Virus record (IMG/VR): IMGVR_UViG_3300045988_004930
Length of the DNA: 5,581 nt
Source: a virus
Reading direction: 5' to 3' (one strand)
The translations under genes were made by a program, and so were the position numbers. Below are positions 1-5,581 of the stretch, one piece after another; within the stretch, counting starts at the first letter, position 1; each line of letters opens with the position of its first letter. Under the pieces are notes generated by a model. That model was given only the letters and a program-made list of their open reading frames with translations, did not search any database and had not been told where the DNA came from.

Positions 1-99
1 CAGCACCACAGACGCAACCGTAAACTATACGGATGATGAAACAAAGGGCATGGACGCAACAACGCCTAACCTTGAGTACATCCTTCAGAACGCATACAC
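1..99. repeat. Terminal redundancy, left copy (circular-genome assembly overlap), identical to 5483-5581
   Basis: Base-by-base comparison: cagcaccacagacgcaaccg...cagaacgcatacac at 1-99 equals 5483-5581 (99/99). The reading frame of the capsid ORF is continuous across the implied junction. Confidence 0.95.
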
Positions 100-1171: not shown

Positions 1172-1235
1172 AGTTTTTCGTTATTGTTATCCTAAAATAG
1201 CAATAATATAACGTAACAACGACAAAAATAAGAAT

Positions 1236-1270
1236 CCTCAGCTGAGAGTGTCAGCTGAGGCCTCAGCTGA
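1236..1270 (+). repeat. Three copies of the palindromic 8-mer TCAGCTGA (1238-1245, 1251-1258, 1263-1270) forming mutually exclusive hairpins
   Basis: cctcagctga-gagtg-tcagctgagg-cctcagctga. 1236-1245 pairs perfectly with 1251-1260 (10 bp, 5-nt loop). Alternatively 1251-1258 pairs with 1263-1270 (8 bp, loop ggcc). Each unit contains CAGCTG. Confidence 0.85.
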
Positions 1271-1283
1271 AGAAAGGGGGAAA

Positions 1284-1313
1284 GCCCGGGGCAATACCCC
1301 GGGCTATTTTATT
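1284..1313 (+). terminator. Candidate intrinsic terminator or mRNA-stabilising hairpin downstream of VP1
   Basis: gcccgggg (1284-1291) / caata loop / ccccgggc (1297-1304) is a perfect 8-bp all-GC stem, followed by the T-rich tail tattttatt. It lies after the capsid stop, as with the leaky hairpin terminators of phiX174-type phages. Confidence 0.55.
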
Positions 1314-2120
1314 ATGGGATTAGCAGCAATCGGCAGCGCGCTACTCGGAATCGGCAAACAACTACTTCCAACGATCGCCGGAGGATTCATAAACAAATTC
1401 ATAGGCGGAAACCTGATGGAGAGCAACGGGGGGAGCAGTCAGCACAACGAAAGCACAAGCCAGGGAGGCGGCCAAAGCAGCAGCGCCAGCGGCGTAAACC
1501 GAGAACAGAACCTACAAGACTGGAACAGCATGCTAAGTGCAATTCAAGGCAATATGCAAAGCCAACAGAAGTTTAACCGTCGAAGCATGTTCGAACAGAT
1601 GGGCTATAACACCATGGCGGCAATCACTCAGGGTGTATATAACCAAATAAGCAACAACGCAGCAATGTCCTACAACAGCGCACAAGCAGCCAAAAACAGA
1701 GCTTGGCAAGAGCAAATGAGCAATACATCTTATCAGCGAGCTGTGGAAGACATGCGAAAAGCCGGCATCAACCCTATCTTAGCGTATCAGCAGGGCGGAG
1801 CAAGCACTCCGGGAGGTGCACAGGCTACCATCAGCGGCGCGAGCATGGGTCTCCCAAGCAGTAGTGCGGCAACAGCAAGCGCTCTCGGAGTAAGCCAAAA
1901 CCACAACAACACATGGAGCAAAAGCGAAAGCAACTGGTACAACGCAGCACAAGCGGTTGGAGACGCTACAAGCTGGTCGCACACAAGCGCAGACAAAGCG
2001 TTAAAGGCGTTCGAAAACGTCCTGGGCCAGCTGGGAAGCCTCACAAACAACAATTCCAAAGACAGATCAACGAAAGACAAAGACGGCTTTGGAGGAAGCC
2101 AAGGAGGAAAATTTAAATAA
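1314..2120 (+). CDS. VP2 minor capsid / DNA pilot protein (268 aa)
   Basis: Hydrophobic N-terminus MGLAAIGSALLGIGKQLLPTIAGGF, a G/S/Q/N-rich low-complexity body, and the conserved gokushovirus VP2-type segment SYQRAVEDMRKAGINPILAY. The ORF-track start at 1248 is GTG and lies inside the hairpin cluster. ATG 1314 is the first ATG and follows the hairpins. Stop TAA at 2118-2120. Confidence 0.82.
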   Translation: MGLAAIGSALLGIGKQLLPTIAGGFINKFIGGNLMESNGGSSQHNESTSQGGGQSSSASGVNREQNLQDWNSMLSAIQGNMQSQQKFNRRSMFEQMGYNTMAAITQGVYNQISNNAAMSYNSAQAAKNRAWQEQMSNTSYQRAVEDMRKAGINPILAYQQGGASTPGGAQATISGASMGLPSSSAATASALGVSQNHNNTWSKSESNWYNAAQAVGDATSWSHTSADKALKAFENVLGQLGSLTNNNSKDRSTKDKDGFGGSQGGKFK

Positions 2121-3139
2121 TGGGGTGTAACAAACCGTTAATCCGGTTTTATGTACCTCACGATAGAGAGGCGAGTGGGCGAGTGTACTCACTCGCTTCT
2201 TTTAACAAGATTCATAAAACCAAAATGAAGTATGAAGACCTGATGTACCGTAAAGATGTAATGATGATACCGTGTGGACAATGCACAGGATGCAAACTAC
2301 GCAAACGCAAAGACTGGGCAACACGAATGGAGCTGGAAGCATACGGCCACAACAAAGAAAGCATCTGGTTCATCACACTGACCTATGATGACAACCATGT
2401 GCCAACACAGGACACGGAAACAGGGGAAATCTTCAAGGGAGGCGTGAATGTATGGAGAGACGCCTCAGAGCGTCCTAGAACGGTGCAAACTTTAAGCGTG
2501 GAGGATGTCCAGTTATTCATGAAAAGGCTTAGAAAGGCCGTCAGCGAACCTCTCAGGTACTTTCTGGCAGGAGAGTACGGGGACAACACCTCAAGACCAC
2601 ACTATCACATGATATTGTACGGATGGAATCCAGACGACTTAAAGCCGATTCATAGGCTGTCAAGGTTTGGACACTACACGAGCGATAAACTGGTCAAAGT
2701 CTGGGGACAAGGAACAGTTGACATAGCTCAAGCAACGCCAGAAACGTATAACTACGTAGCTGGATATGTGACCAAGAAGCTGTACGGAAACGACAGAGAC
2801 AAGTATAAGAAAATGGGACTCATGCCGCCATTCTGCGTAATGAGCCGAAAGCCAGGACTCGGAGACGAATGGTTCCAAAAGAACCAAGAGAGGCTATGGC
2901 AACTTGGATACATCCAGCTGACAAACGGCAAGAGAGCAGCCATTCCAGAATATTACTGGCGAAAGCTGGAAGCTGAAAATCCTGAAAAGGCGTGGAGAAT
3001 CAAGCAGTATCGACAAGAGAAAGCCATTGCGTCCCTAATCGAAAGAAACATGGAAACTGACAAACGGTATGCCGAACAAATGGCCGATAAAGAAGCAATC
3101 ATGAAGAAGAAGATGTCCAAAGCAAAGGGCGTTTTTTAG
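2120..3139 (+). CDS. VP4 replication initiation protein (phiX174 gpA-like HUH rolling-circle endonuclease, 339 aa)
   Basis: Motif I FITLTYDD. HUH motif RPHYHMILYG (HYH codons at 2600-2608). Two-tyrosine motif YNYVAGYVTKK (2747-2779, YxxxY as in phiX174 A protein). N-terminal IPCGQCTGCKLRKRKDW cysteine cluster. SD aaggagga at 2101-2108. The ATG overlaps the VP2 stop (TAATG). Confidence 0.95.
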   Translation: MGCNKPLIRFYVPHDREASGRVYSLASFNKIHKTKMKYEDLMYRKDVMMIPCGQCTGCKLRKRKDWATRMELEAYGHNKESIWFITLTYDDNHVPTQDTETGEIFKGGVNVWRDASERPRTVQTLSVEDVQLFMKRLRKAVSEPLRYFLAGEYGDNTSRPHYHMILYGWNPDDLKPIHRLSRFGHYTSDKLVKVWGQGTVDIAQATPETYNYVAGYVTKKLYGNDRDKYKKMGLMPPFCVMSRKPGLGDEWFQKNQERLWQLGYIQLTNGKRAAIPEYYWRKLEAENPEKAWRIKQYRQEKAIASLIERNMETDKRYAEQMADKEAIMKKKMSKAKGVF

Positions 3140-3148
3140 CTCTGGTGT

Positions 3149-3197
3149 CACTCAGCCAAGTAACTATCAAGTATATATACTTGGCTGAGTGTTTTTT
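3149..3197 (+). terminator. Rho-independent terminator after rep
   Basis: cactcagccaagta (3149-3162) pairs perfectly with tacttggctgagtg (3178-3191). This is a 14-bp stem with a 15-nt loop (actatcaagtatata), followed by TTTTTT (3192-3197), 10 nt after the Rep stop. Confidence 0.8.
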
Positions 3198-3207
3198 AGG
3201 TTTATCA

Positions 3208-3250
3208 GCACGCGCACGCACGCGCACGTAATCGCGCACATGCGCGCGCG
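3208..3250. repeat. Alternating purine-pyrimidine CG/CA tract (Z-DNA-prone) with tandem CACGCGCACG x2 and internal inverted repeats
   Basis: Perfect R-Y alternation at 3208-3230 (23 nt) and 3233-3250 (18 nt). CACGCGCACG occurs at 3209-3218 and 3219-3228. aatcgcgc (3230-3237) is the reverse complement of gcgcgatt (3246-3253). The tract is followed by the AT-only run atttttattatattattattta. Confidence 0.85.
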
Positions 3251-3278
3251 ATTTTTATTATATTATTATTTACTTGTT

Positions 3279-3293
3279 GTAGTCGTAGTAGTA
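3279..3293. repeat. Short trinucleotide repeat (GTA)5 with one variant unit, preceded by a (TTA)-rich tract at 3251-3272
   Basis: gta gtc gta gta gta read directly at 3279-3293. Confidence 0.8.
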
Positions 3294-3298
3294 GGGAG

Positions 3299-3474
3299 TG
3301 TTGAAATGTTGAATACTATAAATTTTTATCCTTGGAACGATATTTTGTGATTAATTTTGATGTTGATAATTTTGTGGAAAACTTGTTAAATTGTTGAAAG
3401 TGTAGCAATATGCACAAAACCATTTGTGCAACTTTTTGTGGAAAACCTGTTGAAAGTGTTGAAAGTGTTGAAAA
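3299..3474 (+). repeat. Iteron-like array: eight same-orientation TGTTGAAA-type 8/9-mers plus a duplicated 18-mer TTTTGTGGAAAAC(T/C)TGTT
   Basis: TGTTGAAA 3299, TGTTGAAT 3307, TGTTGATA 3361, TGTTAAAT 3384, TGTTGAAAG 3392, then a perfect tandem TGTTGAAAG TGTTGAAAG TGTTGAAAA at 3448-3474. The 18-mer occurs at 3370-3387 and 3434-3451 (17/18 identical, 64 bp apart). Confidence 0.9.
3411..3430. promoter_or_regulatory. Perfect palindrome TGCACAAA-acca-TTTGTGCA (candidate operator, recombinase core or DNA hairpin)
   Basis: The 8-bp arms are exact reverse complements around a 4-nt spacer. It sits between the two 18-mer copies. An extra half-site, ATGCACAAAA, recurs at 3597-3606, just upstream of the -35 box at 3612. 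Confidence 0.6.
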
Positions 3475-3483
3475 AGCAATTAA

Positions 3484-3633
3484 GGCCGTCCGGCGAGCGA
3501 AACCGGAAAGTCACGTCATGCTCTTCGTACGGCGCACCGCGCCTAGCGCATGACCTTTTAGATGAACGGAGATGCAAAACAATTCGATTGGGAAAAATGC
3601 ACAAAAGAGGCTTGACGAGCCTCTTTTTTTTTT
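3484..3633 (+). ncRNA. Candidate small structured RNA (or ssDNA complementary-strand origin): GC-rich hairpin block plus intrinsic terminator
   Basis: 3484-3555 is about two-thirds G+C (48/72) inside AT-rich flanks. Hairpin A is tccgg 3489-3493 / ccgga 3503-3507. Hairpin B has an outer stem gtcatgc 3515-3521 / gcatgac 3548-3554 and a nested stem ggcgc 3531-3535 / gcgcc 3539-3543. The terminator hairpin is at 3603-3627, followed by T10. There is no credible ORF and the upstream promoter is only weak (TTGTTA 3383-3388, 17 nt, CAATAT 3406-3411). This call is a hypothesis. Confidence 0.25.
3603..3633 (+). terminator. Strong rho-independent terminator (possibly bidirectional)
   Basis: aaaagaggct (3603-3612) pairs perfectly with agcctctttt (3618-3627) around the 5-nt loop tgacg. 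The T run extends to 10 T (3624-3633). The upstream A-tract gives a U-tract on the opposite strand too. Confidence 0.8.
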
Positions 3634-3640
3634 ATATACT
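3612..3640 (+). promoter_or_regulatory. Near-consensus sigma70-type promoter for the small-gene/VP3/VP1 operon
   Basis: -35 TTGACG (3612-3617, 5/6), exactly 17-nt spacer, -10 TATACT (3635-3640, 5/6). The predicted transcription start is near 3647. The next SD-preceded gene starts at 3827. Confidence 0.55.
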
Positions 3641-3826
3641 AAAGGCAGTTAAACAGCTCAGAAGTACATTTAACGAATTCCATTTTTACAAAAATAACTT
3701 TACGAAAGAGGTGAATTGCTCTGACCATCCAAAAAATCAAAACGCTGTTTAACAACATCCAGAAAATCCTTGCAATGCTGGACAAAATCTACCATGCCGT
3801 AACAAACAACGGACAGGAGACTTAAC

Positions 3827-4057
3827 ATGATGGAGACCAAACCGTGGAATGTAAGAGATCAGACCGACGAGAACCTTATGCAGGAGTTGACGAAAATCTA
3901 CAAAGCGATAGACGCCGCATACAGTATGATTCGAAAGGCCGCAACAATCGAAGACGCAAAGTATTATATTGACCTTGCGTTCCGAAAAAAAGCACTCGCC
4001 AGCAACATTGAGGTGGAAATCCTCAGAAGGGAAATCAACCATGGCAAAGAGGAGTAA
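3827..4057 (+). CDS. Hypothetical small protein, 76 aa, predicted helical. First gene of the post-IGR operon.
   Basis: ATG 3827 is preceded by SD aggag (3815-3819, 7-nt spacer). The ORF is uninterrupted and its 3' end overlaps the next gene by 17 nt. I recognise no family. Confidence 0.6.
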   Translation: MMETKPWNVRDQTDENLMQELTKIYKAIDAAYSMIRKAATIEDAKYYIDLAFRKKALASNIEVEILRREINHGKEE

Positions 4058-4160
4058 AGTACGCAAGTCGAAAGACGCAAAAATCTACAACAAGACCGCA
4101 CGCAAAACCAAGGCTATTAACCTTGGCAGCGGCGCAATGAGAGGAGGCATCCGACTGTGA
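4041..4160 (+). CDS. Small basic DNA-binding / packaging protein (J/VP8-like, 39 aa)
   Basis: MAKRSKVRKSKDAKIYNKTARKTKAINLGSGAMRGGIRL is extremely K/R-rich and has the C-terminal MRGGIRL-type ending that I recall from small DNA-binding proteins of gokushovirus-like genomes. The ORF-track start at 3969 is TTG without an SD, so ATG 4041 is preferred. Confidence 0.68.
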   Translation: MAKRSKVRKSKDAKIYNKTARKTKAINLGSGAMRGGIRL

Positions 4161-4183
4161 GCGCAGTATACGCAGGAGTAACA

Positions 4184-4255
4184 ATGGCATGCCTCGCAGC
4201 AGGCTTTGTCTTCATCATCTTCTCAATCGACATCATCAAAAACTGGTTTAAGTAA
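4184..4255 (+). CDS. Unannotated micro-ORF: 23-aa hydrophobic peptide MACLAAGFVFIIFSIDIIKNWFK (candidate membrane or lysis peptide)
   Basis: ATG 4184 has SD aggag (4174-4178) 5 nt upstream. Stop TAA 4253-4255 is embedded in the SD (taaggaga) of the next gene. It fills what would otherwise be a 105-nt gap in a tightly packed operon. It falls below the length cutoff of the supplied ORF track. Confidence 0.45.
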   Translation: MACLAAGFVFIIFSIDIIKNWFK

Positions 4256-4265
4256 GGAGACAAAC

Positions 4266-4502
4266 ATGAACGTATACGGAATTTTCGATAAATGCGTGAT
4301 GGGTTATATCACCATCTTCACCGAACGTGACGACAAAGTAGCCGAACGCAATTTCAGAATCGCGCTGACCGACGAGCGAAACATCATGAGCAAAACTCCA
4401 AGCGATTATCGGCTGGTGCGTCTGGCAAAATTCGACGAGAAAACGGGCCTGTTTGAGAATGAAAAGGAGAACATCTTCGATGGCGTATCGCTCAGTAAGT
4501 AA
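4266..4502 (+). CDS. Small conserved Microviridae nonstructural protein (78 aa, possibly the VP5/protein C analogue)
   Basis: ATG 4266 has SD aaggaga (4254-4260). The sequence MNVYGIFDKCVMGYITIFTERDDKVAERNFRIAL...PSDYRLVRLAKFDEKTGLF matches the pattern of a small protein I recall as recurrent in gut microviruses (YxIxDxK...ND..A.R.F....PEDY.L..IG.FD..TG). The ORF-track start at 4206 is TTG and would run through the micro-ORF. Confidence 0.72.
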   Translation: MNVYGIFDKCVMGYITIFTERDDKVAERNFRIALTDERNIMSKTPSDYRLVRLAKFDEKTGLFENEKENIFDGVSLSK

Positions 4503-4959
4503 CTTCAGGGAGACCGCAACAGCAAAGGCCACCGAAGCCGGAGAGACCGTGAGGCGCACATACCTCTGGGAACTCAACGAAAAAGGCGAAAAGGTGCTGA
4601 CGCTTGACCAGGTCATCGACCAGCAGGCGGAAATCGACAGCTATCTGGAAGAGACCAAGCTAGAAAACATCATCCGACGGGCATCCATCGACCCTGACCT
4701 TGCGGCCAGACTGGTACCGGACATAGGCAATGGGCTCCAAGACGCAACCGAGATGCCAGAAAACCTGATGCAGCTTCAGAACATCATGCTGCGGGCCGAG
4801 CAAATCTGGGATGAAATCCCGAAGGAAATCAAGCTCAAATTTGACAATGACATCGATAAATTCGTAGCAAGCTTCGGCACTGTCGACTGGGCAAAAAATC
4901 TGGGCATTTATCAGGAAAAGCCGCCTGAAGAGCCTAAAAAGGAGGAAGCCACTGAATGA
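4480..4959 (+). CDS. VP3 internal scaffolding protein (159 aa)
   Basis: The C-terminal segment RAEQIWDEIPKEIKLKFDNDIDKFV matches the conserved VP3 motif style (F..LP.EIR..F.NDP..F), with an acidic tail. ATG 4480 has SD aggag (4465-4469, 10-nt spacer). The ORF-track start at 4453 is TTG. Stop TGA 4957-4959 overlaps the VP1 ATG (ATGA). Confidence 0.8.
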   Translation: MAYRSVSNFRETATAKATEAGETVRRTYLWELNEKGEKVLTLDQVIDQQAEIDSYLEETKLENIIRRASIDPDLAARLVPDIGNGLQDATEMPENLMQLQNIMLRAEQIWDEIPKEIKLKFDNDIDKFVASFGTVDWAKNLGIYQEKPPEEPKKEEATE

Positions 4960-5581
4960 ACAGAAACAAAGACGCGGGGTTTAATCAGGTTCCGAGACTG
5001 GACATTACGCGAAGTCGCTTCAAACGGCGGCAGGACGTCAAGCTAACCATGAACGCGGGCCAGCTTATTCCGTTCTACGTGGATGAAGTGCTCCCGGGTG
5101 ATACCTTCAGCATCGACCAAGCAGCAATTATCCGAATGACAACTCCTATCTTCCCGGTTATGGACAACTGCCACATGGATATTTACTACTTCAACGTACC
5201 GTGTCGTATCATCTGGGACCACTTCAAACGGTTTATGGGCGAAAACGATGCTGGGCCGTGGACACAGACTCAGGAGTACACCATTCCGCAGGTCAAAGTG
5301 ACCGGAACACCAGAAAAACCGGCACCTTATGAGGGCAGCATCATGGACTACATGGGCATTCCTACCAAGGTGAGCAAAGGAGCTGATACTGCATTCAGCG
5401 TAAATGCATTACCATTCAGAGCCTACGCTATGATTTGGCAGGAGTGGTTCCGCGACCAGAACGTGGACAATCCGGCAATCAACAGCACCACAGACGCAAC
5501 CGTAAACTATACGGATGATGAAACAAAGGGCATGGACGCAACAACGCCTAACCTTGAGTACATCCTTCAGAACGCATACAC
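4956..5581 (+). CDS. Major capsid protein VP1, N-terminal part (open at the window end, continues at base 100 of the circle)
   Basis: Hand translation gives MNRNKDAGFNQVPRLDITRSRFKRRQDVKLTMNAGQLIPFYVDEVLPGDTFSIDQAAIIRMTTPIFPVMDNCHMDIYYFNVPCRIIWDHFKRFMGEN..., with no stop through 5581. This is the classic Microviridae VP1 N-terminus. SD aaggagg at 4939-4945. It is absent from the ORF track because it has no stop inside the window. Confidence 0.93.
   Translation, partial: MNRNKDAGFNQVPRLDITRSRFKRRQDVKLTMNAGQLIPFYVDEVLPGDTFSIDQAAIIRMTTPIFPVMDNCHMDIYYFNVPCRIIWDHFKRFMGENDAGPWTQTQEYTIPQVKVTGTPEKPAPYEGSIMDYMGIPTKVSKGADTAFSVNALPFRAYAMIWQEWFRDQNVDNPAINSTTDATVNYTDDETKGMDATTPNLEYILQNAY
5483..5581. repeat. 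Terminal redundancy, right copy (identical to 1-99)
   Basis: 99/99 identity to 1-99, read directly. Confidence 0.95.

What the first reader, a model, noticed from the sequence alone, without database searches (positions are those of the whole stretch)
3140..3826. A 687-nt noncoding region of discrete modules (about one eighth of the genome) in an otherwise overlapping, tightly packed microvirus
Gene junctions elsewhere overlap (TAATG, ATGA, 17-nt and 23-nt overlaps). From the Rep stop (3139) to the next SD-preceded ATG (3827), however, there is no credible ORF. The two track ORFs there use non-ATG starts, lack an SD, and run through tandem repeats and terminators. The region is built of discrete modules in a fixed order: a terminator hairpin, an alternating CG/CA block, (TTA)/(GTA) low complexity, eight iterons with a duplicated 18-mer, a perfect palindrome, a GC-rich hairpin block, a terminator overlapped by a promoter, and a leader of about 180 nt. 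That much ordered non-coding sequence in a 5.5-kb ssDNA phage suggests it has a function. Candidates are an origin, a regulatory switch, an RNA gene or an integration site. I do not recognise the arrangement as a described Microviridae element.
Basis: partly seen in the sequence, partly recalled or inferred. Interest (0 to 1): 0.72.

Follow-up and report, generated by a model that had tools for sequence, protein, structure and literature searches.

The report
Bacterial-origin-like DNA cassette in a microvirus
The long gap between genes in this small gut phage holds a conserved 215-base cassette that is built like the place where bacteria start copying their chromosome. The phage may therefore borrow the host's own replication starter protein, which has not been described for this virus family.

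Summary
The window is a circular gokushovirus genome of 5482 nt. The gap at 3140-3826 is real and modular, but it is not all non-coding. Positions 3721-3825 hold a conserved 34-codon gene that starts with CTG here and with ATG in most relatives.

The core is a cassette of about 215 nt (3251-3477). It occurs once in at least 176 gut gokushovirus genomes whose Rep proteins share only 33-96% identity, and it always lies next to the Rep gene. It is direct after Rep in 117 genomes, inverted before Rep in 54, and flipped in place in 5.

Its order is: a 22-nt A/T-only run, then TAG trinucleotide repeats, a 4-nt gap (GGAG), two tandem 9-mers, and eight more same-strand TGT(T/G)GA(A/T)AA units around a hairpin. 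This matches the published bacterial origin unwinding system (DnaA-trios, spacer, tandem DnaA boxes) in order, strand and spacing.

The same repeat units form arrays in unrelated large phages. That points to a host protein, most likely DnaA. The match is sequence-based only, and the window's two trio-proximal boxes are weak.

Best reading: a DnaA-dependent, oriC-like module that acts on the double-stranded replicative form. I found no description of this in Microviridae.

The parts
3149..3197 (+). Terminator-like hairpin after Rep/VP4: arms 3149-3167 and 3173-3191, followed by TTTTTT
   Evidence: Inverted repeat I1, 19 nt, 89% complementary; sequence checked. Relatives keep the stem through paired changes: CAGCC/GGCTG here against CCGCC/GGCGG in L003.
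3205..3253 (+). Alternating CG/CA block with a terminator-like hairpin at 3230-3253 and a T-run. It forms the left GC-rich flank of the cassette.
   Evidence: The same kind of block flanks the cassette in relatives and stays in place when the cassette is inverted.
3251..3272 (.). A/T-only run of 22 nt, a candidate DNA unwinding element
   Evidence: Longest A/T-only run in the genome. It lies directly on the far side of the trio block from the boxes, as AT-rich unwinding regions do in Firmicutes origins.
3273..3294 (+). Trinucleotide block C TTG TTG TAG TCG TAG TAG TAG. It is DnaA-trio-like: read 3'->5' it gives GAT GAT GAT.
   Evidence: It is the most conserved stretch of the 21-sequence BLAST-derived alignment. 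In a box-anchored sample that does not select on this block, 40 of 59 genomes carry it exactly, and most of the others with a full-length cassette differ by whole TAG units or single bases.
3295..3315 (+). 4-nt gap GGAG plus tandem box-like units TGTTGAAA (3299-3306) and TGTTGAATA (3307-3315), offset 8 nt. This gives a box-to-trio spacer of 12 nt.
   Evidence: Same layout as B. subtilis, S. aureus, Listeria and C. botulinum in Table S2 of PMC8287927. The composite pattern is unique in the window and occurs in 2 of 2000 dinucleotide shuffles.
3361..3474 (+). Array of eight same-strand TGT(T/G)GA(A/T)AA-like units starting at 3361, 3373, 3384, 3392, 3437, 3448, 3457 and 3466. Their reverse complement is TT(A/T)TC(C/A)ACA, a DnaA-box variant.
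   Evidence: All 4 exact TTWTCMACA matches in the genome lie here, on one strand. So do 7 of the 13 one-mismatch matches; two more are the trio-proximal units 3299-3315, giving 9 of 13 for the whole cassette. The consensus comes from PMC3322544.
3411..3430 (.). Central perfect hairpin TGCACAAA-ACCA-TTTGTGCA
   Evidence: In other clades a different hairpin (TTCGTCA-nnn-TGACGAA) sits at the same place.
3481..3560 (+). GC-rich module: a variable first hairpin, then a near-invariant 40-mer CGTCATGCTCTTCGYACGGCGCACCGCGCCTASCGCATGAC (stem GTCATGC/GCATGAC)
   Evidence: 45 distinct sequences carry it. It has the same orientation as VP4 and the cassette in 46 of 46 genomes. Only one sequence shows compensatory stem changes. 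Folding energy is not better than shuffles. Function not resolved.
3603..3640 (+). Hairpin 3603-3627 with T-runs on both strands (bidirectional terminator-like), overlapped by promoter-like TTGACG (3612-3617)-17-TATACT (3635-3640)
   Evidence: 10 of 12 promoter matches. The region aligns with close relatives.
3705..3825 (+). SD sequence AAAGAGGTG (3705-3713) and a small gene at 3721-3825: CTG start, 34 codons plus a TAA stop, product LTIQKIKTLFNNIQKILAMLDKIYHAVTNNGQET
   Evidence: The peptide is conserved across the family. It starts with ATG in most clades and with CTG (27) or TTG (1) in the window's clade. Variable columns are 13/4/24 by codon position.

Best explanation
The heart of the region (3251-3477) is a self-contained cassette that copies the architecture of a bacterial chromosome origin.

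Reading the + strand 5'->3' it holds:
- an A/T-only unwinding stretch;
- a run of TAG trinucleotides (DnaA-trios);
- a 4-nt G-rich gap;
- two tandem DnaA-box-like 9-mers;
- eight more same-orientation boxes around a small hairpin.

Proposed mechanism. In the double-stranded replicative form, host DnaA binds the box array. From the two trio-proximal boxes it polymerises onto the TAG strand and melts the adjacent A/T run. The opened DNA is then used to load the host helicase, so that the replicative form can be copied by the host machinery in a plasmid-like, carrier-state fashion. Alternatively, or in addition, the opened DNA gives the phage Rep access.

Terminators on both sides (3149-3253 and 3603-3627) keep transcription out of the cassette. 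The rest of the 'gap' consists of a second conserved GC-rich module of unknown role, a promoter and a small CTG-initiated gene.

Shown here: the anatomy, its conservation, orientation-independence, the match to the published origin layout, and the presence of the same repeat units in unrelated phages.

Inferred: DnaA binding, unwinding and any replication outcome.
For: 1. Layout match. Table S2 of PMC8287927, reversed to 5'->3', gives:
- B. subtilis TAGTAGAAGTAATAGTAG-GGCC-TGTGGATT-TGTGGATAA
- C. botulinum AAATAGTAGTAGTAGTAGTAG-GGCT-TGTTGATA-TGTTAATAA
- window 3274-3315 TTGTTGTAGTCGTAGTAGTAG-GGAG-TGTTGAAA-TGTTGAATA
The order, strand relation, 4-nt gap, 8-nt box offset and spacer of 12 are the same.

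2. Rarity. The composite pattern is unique in the window and occurs in 2 of 2000 dinucleotide shuffles. It is present in 114 of 179 family cassettes, against 3 hits elsewhere in those genomes.

3. Published rule. 129 of 175 family cassettes satisfy the published BUS search rule, an 83-fold enrichment over the rest of the genomes.

4. Boxes. All 4 exact matches to the low-GC DnaA-box consensus TT(A/T)TC(C/A)ACA in the genome lie in the cassette on one strand. In the family the units vary mostly at the two positions that this consensus leaves free. TTTTCAACA is used as a DnaA box in the literature.

5. The longest A/T-only run of the genome abuts the trios.

6. The trio block varies mostly by whole TAG units.

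7. A host factor is implied. The cassette is about 70% identical between genomes whose Rep is about 34% identical. The same units form arrays of up to 11 in at least 16 large non-microvirus contigs. One (L150) has AT-rich/TAGTAGTAG/GGGC/boxes in the same order, and L147 and L164 have the units next to canonical TTATCCACA-type boxes.

8. The orientation is free relative to the genes: 117 direct, 59 inverted, including exact in-place flips. This fits a double-stranded origin.

9. Gokushoviruses are known to persist as cytoplasmic circles without integrating.
Against: - No binding or replication data exist; everything rests on sequence.
- The window's own two trio-proximal boxes have 3 mismatches each to TTATCCACA, so the window fails the published rule. 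Only 4 of its 10 units are exact to the relaxed consensus.
- The dominant family unit TGTTGAAAA has A where canonical boxes have an invariant C. The host, and therefore its DnaA specificity, is unknown.
- The composite pattern was defined after I had seen the sequence.
- The first IMG/VR sample was selected with the trio block itself.
- TAG repeats are low-complexity and could be conserved for another reason. The flanking TTGTTG is also invariant but is not a consensus trio.
- The cassette always sits next to the Rep gene, which a purely host-driven element does not require.
- SpV4, Chp2, phiMH2K and phiHBP1 lack it, so it is not needed for basic gokushovirus replication.
- No rolling-circle phage is known to me to need a DnaA-type origin.
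Confidence: 0.5

Rival explanations
1. The cassette is the phage's own rolling-circle origin. Rep/VP4 binds the repeats as iterons and nicks in or near the invariant AACTTGTTGTAG block or the central hairpin, as HUH Rep proteins do in geminiviruses, circoviruses and plasmids.
For: The cassette always lies directly beside the Rep gene, on one side or the other, in 176 genomes. It has direct repeats around a hairpin. The relatives' AACTTG shares six bases with the phiX174 origin core CAACTTG^ATA (my own knowledge; alignment). It is the most conserved non-coding DNA of the genome.
Against: The repeats are the same in lineages whose Rep is only 33-42% identical, whereas Rep-specific iterons normally change with Rep. 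The same units occur in large phages that have no VP4. SpV4, Chp2 and phiMH2K have homologous Rep but no such element. An inverted cassette would reverse the packaged strand in a third of the genomes. Beyond six bases there is no similarity to the phiX origin. The pMV158-like TACTACGAC on the - strand (3283-3291) is not conserved in the family.
Confidence: 0.12
2. The repeats do bind host DnaA, but as a sink or regulator and not as an origin. Many replicative-form copies soak up DnaA and shut down host initiation, or they tie phage gene expression to the host's DnaA level.
For: There is a dense same-strand box array. In several large phages 3-4 units sit just upstream of a small gene, like an operator. 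In the 54 'before VP4' genomes the cassette lies upstream of the Rep gene.
Against: A sink needs neither the trios nor the A/T run, yet these are the best-conserved part and keep the exact spacing to the boxes. In most genomes the cassette lies between terminators, downstream of Rep, and not at a promoter.
Confidence: 0.13
3. The units are binding sites for some other protein that only resembles DnaA in its site, such as a host nucleoid or regulatory protein or a small phage protein. The likeness to the origin layout would then be coincidental.
For: The dominant unit TGTTGAAAA differs from the canonical box at a normally invariant position. The host is unknown. Two small conserved genes of unknown function (3721-3825 and 3827-4057) co-occur with the cassette and have no family hits.
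Against: The small proteins are acidic and helical, and there is no sign that they occur in the large phages that carry the same arrays. The match to the origin layout includes order, strand, gap length, box offset and the A/T run. Canonical DnaA boxes sit next to the units in L147 and L164.
Confidence: 0.15
4. The cassette is a complementary-strand (single-strand) origin. The C-poor, weakly structured strand with a hairpin would be read on the incoming virion DNA by host primase or RNA polymerase, as in G4, M13 or plasmid sso elements.
For: The cassette + strand is only 7.5% C, so it would stay largely unpaired around the hairpin. ssDNA phages need such a site. The whole region folds better than shuffled sequence as ssDNA (z = -3.1), mostly because of the flanking hairpins.
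Against: A single-strand origin is strand-specific, but the cassette is inverted relative to the genes in 59 of 176 genomes. There is no similarity to known sso elements, and the classical gokushoviruses lack it. The GC module 3481-3560, which is never found inverted, is a better candidate for this role.
Confidence: 0.05

Closest known systems
Basal unwinding system (BUS) of bacterial oriC: DnaA boxes, spacer, DnaA-trios and an AT-rich region (Richardson 2016/2019; Pelliciari 2021, PMC8287927)
   Same: The order and strand relation of the A/T run, the TAG (3'-GAT-5') trios, the 4-nt gap and the tandem boxes offset by 8 nt are the same. The spacer of 12 nt matches B. subtilis, S. aureus, Listeria and C. 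botulinum. C. botulinum even uses TGTTGATA/TGTTAATAA boxes.
   Different: The cassette sits in a 5.5-kb ssDNA phage, not next to dnaA/dnaN. The window's proximal boxes are 3 mismatches from TTATCCACA. Ten boxes all point one way. The cassette is flanked by GC-rich hairpins. Neither binding nor unwinding has been shown.
DnaA-box-containing origins of plasmids and phages (pSC101, F, P1, RK2) and the DnaA-dependent 'ABC primosome' hairpin sites (my own knowledge)
   Same: They are mobile replicons that recruit host DnaA through box clusters near an AT-rich region.
   Different: Those origins also carry iterons for their own initiator, and none is described with a trio block. The ABC primosome site is a hairpin with a box in its stem, which is not seen here.
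Intergenic region of filamentous phages M13/f1 (my own knowledge)
   Same: It is a long modular non-coding region in a small ssDNA phage. It is bracketed by a terminator and a promoter and holds the replication signals.
   Different: The M13 signals are the gpII nick site, RNA-polymerase-primed hairpins and a packaging hairpin. There is no sequence or layout similarity to the region here.
phiX174 30-nt origin in gene A (my own knowledge)
   Same: It belongs to the same virus family and has a related Rep. Relatives share AACTTG with the origin core.
   Different: The phiX origin lies inside the Rep gene, has no repeats, and has no other identity to this cassette. The classical gokushoviruses lack the cassette.
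dif-type attachment site of enterobacterial gokushoviruses (Kirchberger and Ochman, bioRxiv 10.1101/743518)
   Same: It is a functional non-coding element in a gokushovirus intergenic region. The same study shows persistence of cytoplasmic circles.
   Different: That element is a single 28-bp XerCD site with prophage copies in host genomes. Here there is a 215-nt repeat cassette and no integrated copy was found.

Membership tests
Bacterial origin basal unwinding system (BUS) | At least three consecutive DnaA-trios (3'-[G/A]A[T/A]-5', with a middle A) | tested here: met
   TAG TAG TAG at 3286-3294, plus TAG at 3280-3282.
Bacterial origin basal unwinding system (BUS) | A DnaA box with at most 2 mismatches to TTATCCACA within 0-16 bp of the trios (the published search rule) | tested here: not met
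   In the window the two proximal units TGTTGAAAT and TGTTGAATA each have 3 mismatches. The rule is met in 129 of 175 related cassettes. It is met in the window only with the low-GC consensus TTWTCMACA at 1 mismatch or fewer.
Bacterial origin basal unwinding system (BUS) | Strand and order: on the trio strand 5'->3', trios, then a short gap, then box(es) in the TGTGGATAA sense. Firmicutes have tandem boxes and a spacer of about 12. | tested here: met
   Window 3274-3315 compared with Table S2 of PMC8287927. Composite pattern found in 2 of 2000 shuffles.
Bacterial origin basal unwinding system (BUS) | An AT-rich unwinding region on the far side of the trios | tested here: met
   A 22-nt A/T-only run at 3251-3272, the longest in the genome.
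Bacterial origin basal unwinding system (BUS) | DnaA binds the boxes, oligomerises on the trios and separates the strands | not testable with these tools
   This needs the host DnaA protein and footprinting or strand-separation assays.
DnaA-box cluster | At least three boxes (TTWTNCACA, 1 mismatch or fewer) spaced less than 100 bp apart on average | tested here: met
   The starts 3361, 3373 and 3437 (within 1 mismatch of TTATCCACA) and 3466 (TTTTCAACA) fall within 114 nt. Only one such site lies elsewhere in the genome. The criterion is as quoted.
Rep (HUH) rolling-circle origin of Microviridae or RCR plasmids | A nick-site consensus (phiX CAACTTG^ATATTAATAAC, or pC194/pMV158-type sites), and repeats that co-vary with the Rep lineage | tested here: not met
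   Only AACTTG is shared, and the window itself has TTACTTG. TACTACGAC is not conserved. The repeats are unchanged across Rep identities of 33-96%. The element is absent from SpV4, Chp2 and phiMH2K. The nick-site sequences are from my own knowledge.
Single-strand origin (sso / G4- or M13-type) | Strand-specific: it must lie on the packaged strand in one orientation | tested here: not met
   The cassette is inverted relative to the genes in 59 of 176 genomes. For the GC module 3481-3560 the result is inconclusive: it always has the gene orientation but no known sso motif was established.
Invertible promoter switch (inverton) | Both orientations occur among near-identical genomes, with flanking inverted repeats | tested here: not met
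   In-place flips have sharp ends between GC-rich flanks. However, the flipped cassettes are only 77-80% identical to the nearest direct ones, while the flanks are 90-94% identical.
XerCD/dif attachment site | Integrated copies in host chromosomes flanked by dif | tested here: not met
   The composite cassette pattern hit only one 5.7-kb free microvirus contig among 185,579 species genomes. A scan for a dif motif was not run.
Described RNA families / tRNA | A match to an Rfam covariance model or a tRNA fold | tested here: not met
   No hit in 3140-3826 at E <= 1. No tRNA or tmRNA.

The most novel reading that the evidence does not exclude
[quoted passage not shown] With it, their double-stranded replicative form is opened and copied by the host initiator DnaA, like a mini-chromosome. 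This would give a plasmid-like carrier state without integration. Unrelated large phages of the same hosts use the same box arrays.
Probability: 0.35. Interest if true: 0.8.

Novelty: new variant of a known kind. Interest (0 to 1): 0.7.

Why it matters
Microviridae are among the most abundant phages of the human and animal gut. How the gut gokushoviruses replicate and persist is almost unknown, and most have no cultured host.

If this cassette is a DnaA-driven origin, three things follow. First, a rolling-circle ssDNA phage would carry a second, host-initiator-dependent way to replicate or be maintained. That offers a concrete mechanism for the long-term, non-integrated persistence seen experimentally in gokushoviruses. 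Second, the cassette would be a compact natural test case, about 215 nt long, for the DnaA-trio model outside chromosomes. Third, it gives a sequence handle for host prediction, because the box type and spacer can be compared with host origins.

The work also corrects the annotation. A conserved micro-gene with a non-ATG start is hidden in the 'gap', and several GenBank 'hypothetical protein' features drawn over the cassette are spurious.

Tried and rejected
- RNA gene. Rfam at E <= 1 and tRNA scans found nothing in the region. The GC block folds no better than shuffled sequence on either strand.
- Degraded protein gene. The ORFs that relatives annotate over the cassette or GC block (MG945138 1336-1569, MG945391 1294-1524) have no start codon or no conservation. 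The alignment has indels that are not multiples of three.
- Canonical DnaA boxes only. My first idea, TGTGGATAA, holds only in close relatives. The family consensus is TGTTGAAAA, so the claim was re-based on the low-GC consensus TTWTCMACA.
- Spo0A boxes (TGTCGAA). The C is never present.
- pMV158-type nick site. TACTACGAC is present on the - strand of the window (3283-3291), but its two variable bases are not conserved in the family.
- Cas12a-repeat mimic. ACTTGTTGTAG resembles the 3' end of Cas12a repeats, but the family consensus does not keep the stem.
- pAD1-type TAGTARRR iterons. This is a resemblance from memory only and was not pursued.
- Host or plasmid origin of the cassette. There was no match in 72,556 plasmids and no bacterial copy in the genome collection.
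- Host identification. Table S1 of PMC8287927 holds no BUS identical to ours, and the Bacteroidales entries were uninformative. The Bacteroides fragilis gokushovirus phiHBP1 lacks the cassette.
- Generality. SpV4, Chp2 and phiMH2K have no box cluster.
- Coupled inversion of the GC module and the cassette. An apparent 5-genome signal was an artefact of missing VP4 hits and disappeared on re-analysis.
Full report
WHAT THE WINDOW IS

The 5581 bases are one circular gokushovirus genome of 5482 nt, read with a 99-nt terminal redundancy. All genes are on the + strand:
- VP1: 4956 through the wrap to 1171
- VP2: 1314-2120
- VP4/Rep: 2120-3139
- a 76-aa ORF: 3827-4057
- a basic 39-aa ORF: 4041-4160
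- a 32-aa hydrophobic ORF: 4157-4255
- VP5: 4266-4502
- VP3: 4480-4959

The closest GenBank records are gut gokushoviruses from human, monkey and pig faeces, with about 80% identity over the whole genome.

CHECK OF THE OBSERVATION

- a hairpin at 3149-3191 with a T-run
- a CG/CA block at 3205-3250 with a second hairpin
- a low-complexity TTA/GTA stretch
- a repeat array
- a perfect palindrome at 3411-3430
- a GC-rich block
- a terminator hairpin at 3603-3627 overlapped by TTGACG-17-TATACT

Two corrections are needed. There are ten repeat units, not eight. The last part is not a leader. Positions 3721-3825 encode a 34-residue peptide, LTIQKIKTLFNNIQKILAMLDKIYHAVTNNGQET, behind a strong Shine-Dalgarno (SD) sequence, AAAGAGGTG, 7 nt upstream of a CTG. 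In most relatives the same gene reads ATG-GCA-CTG... (MALISIKDVKQAI..ILEKLDEIYHAL..) behind AAGGGGGT. In the window's own clade the ATG is lost, and the first codon after the SD sequence is CTG in 27 distinct sequences and TTG in one. Variable alignment columns fall 13/4/24 at codon positions 1/2/3. This is a real gene that ATG/GTG/TTG ORF lists miss. The non-coding span is therefore about 3140-3704.

CONSERVATION

The region matches 44 GenBank gokushovirus records. The widest-conserved part is 3262-3477. It aligns even with genomes that otherwise match the window only patchily, at 66-70%.

Two pattern scans of IMG/VR plus an nhmmer profile found the cassette once per genome in about 180 microvirus-size contigs. 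The Rep proteins of these genomes are 33-96% identical to the window's. The cassettes stay about 70% identical at the DNA level across the deepest splits.

The cassette is always next to the Rep gene, in three arrangements:
- just after Rep's stop, on the gene strand: 117 genomes, including the window
- between VP2 and Rep, just before Rep's start, inverted: 54 genomes
- after Rep but inverted: 5 genomes

In the last class exactly the cassette is flipped between unchanged GC-rich flanks. For example, L025 1145-1356 corresponds to L059 3261-3049, with flanks 90% identical and the cassette 76% identical. The flipped cassettes form their own subtype: about 90% identical among themselves and 77-80% identical to the nearest direct ones. 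This is an old event, not a working switch.

Downstream of the cassette, relatives have a slot of 199-963 nt. In some it carries extra genes: peptidase M15 in MG945694, KX513877 and MG945233, and a 59-aa ORF in MG945138. The window is near the minimum, at 244 nt.

The classical gokushoviruses SpV4, Chp2 and phiMH2K and the Bacteroides phage phiHBP1 have no such cassette. It is therefore an accessory module of a gut clade and not part of the basic replication kit.

ANATOMY OF THE CASSETTE

On the + strand it reads:
- ATTTTTATTATATTATTATTTA (3251-3272), the longest A/T-only run of the genome
- C TTG TTG TAG TCG TAG TAG TAG (3273-3294)
- GGAG (3295-3298)
- TGTTGAAA TGTTGAATA (3299-3315)
- a variable AT-rich spacer
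- units at 3361, 3373, 3384 and 3392
- the hairpin 3411-3430
- units at 3437, 3448, 3457 and 3466

The strand is only 7.5% C.

The pooled logo of 1356 units from 136 cassettes is T-G-T-[T 81%, G 15%]-G-A-[A 90%, T 6%]-[A 84%, T 12%]-[A/G/T]. Its reverse complement, TT(A/T)TC(C/A)ACA, is the DnaA-box consensus given for Mollicutes (PMC3322544). TTTTCAACA is also used as a DnaA box for Lawsonia and, in the DoriC-derived table, for Chlamydophila.

In the window all 4 exact matches to this consensus, and 9 of the 13 one-mismatch matches, lie in the cassette on one strand. Family cassettes carry 1-7 exact boxes, with a median of 4.

COMPARISON WITH THE BACTERIAL ORIGIN UNWINDING SYSTEM

The published system consists of one or two DnaA boxes, a short spacer and at least three DnaA-trios (3'-GAT-5') on one strand, followed by the AT-rich unwinding region.

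Table S2 of Pelliciari et al. lists the elements 3'->5'. Reversed to 5'->3' they give:
- B. subtilis: TAGTAGAAGTAATAGTAG-GGCC-TGTGGATT-TGTGGATAA
- S. aureus: TAGTAATAGTAGTAG-GTGC-TGTGGATT-GGTGGATAA
- C. botulinum: AAATAGTAGTAGTAGTAGTAG-GGCT-TGTTGATA-TGTTAATAA
- window: TTGTTGTAGTCGTAGTAGTAG-GGAG-TGTTGAAA-TGTTGAATA

The order, the strand relation, the 4-nt gap, the 8-nt offset of the tandem boxes and the resulting spacer of 12 are all those of Firmicutes origins. The clostridial boxes even carry the same T at the fourth position.

I defined a composite pattern: at least 3 trios, a 3-5 nt gap, then an 8-mer plus a 9-mer within 2 mismatches of TGTKGAWA(A). It occurs once in the window (at 3286), in 2 of 2000 dinucleotide-preserving shuffles, in 114 of 179 family cassettes, and only 3 times elsewhere in those genomes. 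I defined this pattern after seeing the sequence, so the numbers describe the feature and are not a formal test.

The published rule itself requires a box within 2 mismatches of TTATCCACA. It is met by 129 of 175 family cassettes, an 83-fold enrichment inside the cassette. It is not met by the window, whose two proximal boxes have 3 mismatches each.

In a sample anchored on the boxes, which does not select on the trio block, 40 of 59 genomes have the exact trio block. Most of the others with a full-length cassette differ by whole TAG units or single bases. This is what a trinucleotide-register function predicts.

A HOST FACTOR IS IMPLIED

Three lines of evidence point to a host protein:
- The units do not change with the Rep lineage.
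- The 18-mer GTTGAAAACCTGTTGAAA also occurs in at least 16 large viral contigs of 15-175 kb with GC content from 30% to 45% in the seven contigs measured. There it belongs to intergenic arrays of up to 11 same-strand units (L148, L156, L160, L166).
- One 39-kb contig (L150) has AT-rich/TAGTAGTAG/GGGC/boxes in the same order. L147 and L164 have the units next to canonical TTATCCACA, TTATCAACA and TGTGAATAA boxes.

In the contigs whose flanks were examined, the neighbouring genes are unrelated to microvirus genes. They include a YonO-like RNA polymerase and a weak DnaD-like or replication-initiator hit. Unrelated phages that share one short site in arrays next to AT-rich DNA are best explained by a conserved host protein. 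DnaA is the obvious candidate.

MOST LIKELY MECHANISM

Shown: the anatomy, the conservation, the orientation-independence, the layout match and the shared units.

Inferred: in the double-stranded replicative form DnaA fills the box array. From the trio-proximal pair it extends onto the TAG strand and opens 3251-3294. The opened DNA is used to load the host helicase and replicate or maintain the circle as a plasmid-like element, or to help Rep act.

Orientation-independence fits a duplex origin. It argues against a single-strand origin on the packaged strand. Terminators on both sides would shield the element from transcription.

The carrier state seen for enterobacterial gokushoviruses, where cytoplasmic circles persisted without integration, is the kind of biology such a module would serve. 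That link is speculation.

I put about 0.5 on the cassette being a DnaA-binding, origin-like module and about 0.35 on it actually firing replication.

RIVALS

- A Rep-specific rolling-circle origin remains possible because the cassette always adjoins the Rep gene, and because the block TTGTTGTAG is invariant although it is not a consensus trio. The unchanged repeats across very divergent Reps, the arrays in Rep-less phages and the cassette's absence from classical gokushoviruses speak against it.
- A DnaA sink or regulator would not need the trios and the A/T run.
- Another, unknown binding protein cannot be excluded while the host is unknown.
- An RNA gene, an attachment site, an inverton and a decayed gene were tested and found unsupported.

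THE SECOND CONSERVED MODULE

The block 3481-3560 is shared by 45 distinct sequences. It has a variable first hairpin and a nearly invariant 40-mer, CGTCATGCTCTTCGYACGGCGCACCGCGCCTASCGCATGAC. The 40-mer can form the stem GTCATGC/GCATGAC around an inner GGCGC/GCGCC hairpin.

It always has the orientation of the genes and of the cassette. Other clades carry a different GC-rich module at this place. Only one sequence shows compensatory changes, and the fold is not unusually stable.

Its role is open. A strand-specific signal, such as a Rep nick hairpin or a complementary-strand origin, is a reasonable guess that I could not test.

NOVELTY

Full-text searches found no paper that links DnaA boxes, DnaA-trios or iterons with Microviridae or gokushovirus intergenic regions. 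The plasmid collection has no similar sequence.

The building blocks are known from bacterial chromosomes. Finding them as a portable, invertible cassette in a rolling-circle ssDNA phage, and as arrays in other gut phages, is a new context. I rate it a new variant of a known kind.

Noticed in passing
window 3721-3825 (SD sequence at 3705-3713): A conserved 34-codon gene with a CTG start lies directly upstream of the 76-aa ORF at 3827. It starts with ATG in most relatives. The product (..ILxxLDxIYHA..) has no PHROG hit.
   Followed up: yes
L148, L156, L160, L166, L150, L147, L164, L178 and others (IMG/VR contigs of 15-175 kb): Arrays of up to 11 same-strand TGTTGAAAA(C) units occur in the intergenic DNA of large, unrelated phages. 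L150 has AT-rich/TAGTAGTAG/GGGC/boxes in the same order as the microvirus cassette. L147 and L164 mix the units with canonical DnaA boxes.
   Followed up: partly
L145, L149, L152, L159, L176, L146, L153 (about 10-60 nt upstream of a reverse-strand gene): Three or four TGTTGAAAAC units sit just upstream of a small gene on the other strand. In the one contig translated (L145) its product is a ~51-aa Zn-ribbon-like protein (MPFGSYINKIRVKRCPYCG..). The arrangement looks like an operator.
   Followed up: no
window 3481-3560: A near-invariant 40-mer, CGTCATGCTCTTCGYACGGCGCACCGCGCCTASCGCATGAC, is shared by 45 distinct genomes from very different Rep lineages. It is always in the gene orientation. Its function is unknown.
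   Followed up: partly
L025 1145-1356 (Rep-start coordinates) against L059 3049-3261; also L074 and L108: The ~212-nt cassette is inverted exactly in place between unchanged GC-rich, partly palindromic flanks. The flipped cassettes form a distinct subtype.
   Followed up: yes
window 1172-1313: A second non-coding region lies between VP1 and VP2. It has about 2.8 copies of a CCTCAGCTGAG-type palindromic repeat (1236-1270) and a strong GC hairpin terminator (1283-1305). It gives a weak Rfam anti-hemB hit (24 bits, against a gathering score of 49.5) that looks like a generic terminator match.
   Followed up: no
window 1-99 and 5483-5581: There is an exact 99-nt terminal redundancy. The window is a complete circular genome of 5482 nt.
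   Followed up: yes
window 4157-4255: A 32-aa, strongly hydrophobic ORF (MSAVYAGVTMACLAAGFVFIIFSIDIIKNWFK, GTG start) overlaps the stop of the basic 39-aa ORF. It may be a small membrane protein.
   Followed up: no
MG945138 1336-1569, MG945391 1294-1524, MG945136 1021-1254, MG945233 1320-1529 (GenBank features): These 'similar to hypothetical protein' features are drawn over the cassette or GC module. The two I translated lack a start codon or any conservation and look spurious.
   Followed up: partly
L160 6133-9033 (match orientation): A 966-aa protein matches Pfam RdRP (PF05183, E = 1e-11), which suggests a YonO-like single-subunit RNA polymerase. It lies in a 118-kb phage contig that carries two of the box arrays.
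   Followed up: no
L003 (MG945138) 1567-1746; L014, L016, L017: The slot between the cassette and the micro-gene varies from 199 to 963 nt among relatives. It carries cargo such as a 59-aa ORF with its own promoter, or a peptidase M15 gene.
   Followed up: partly
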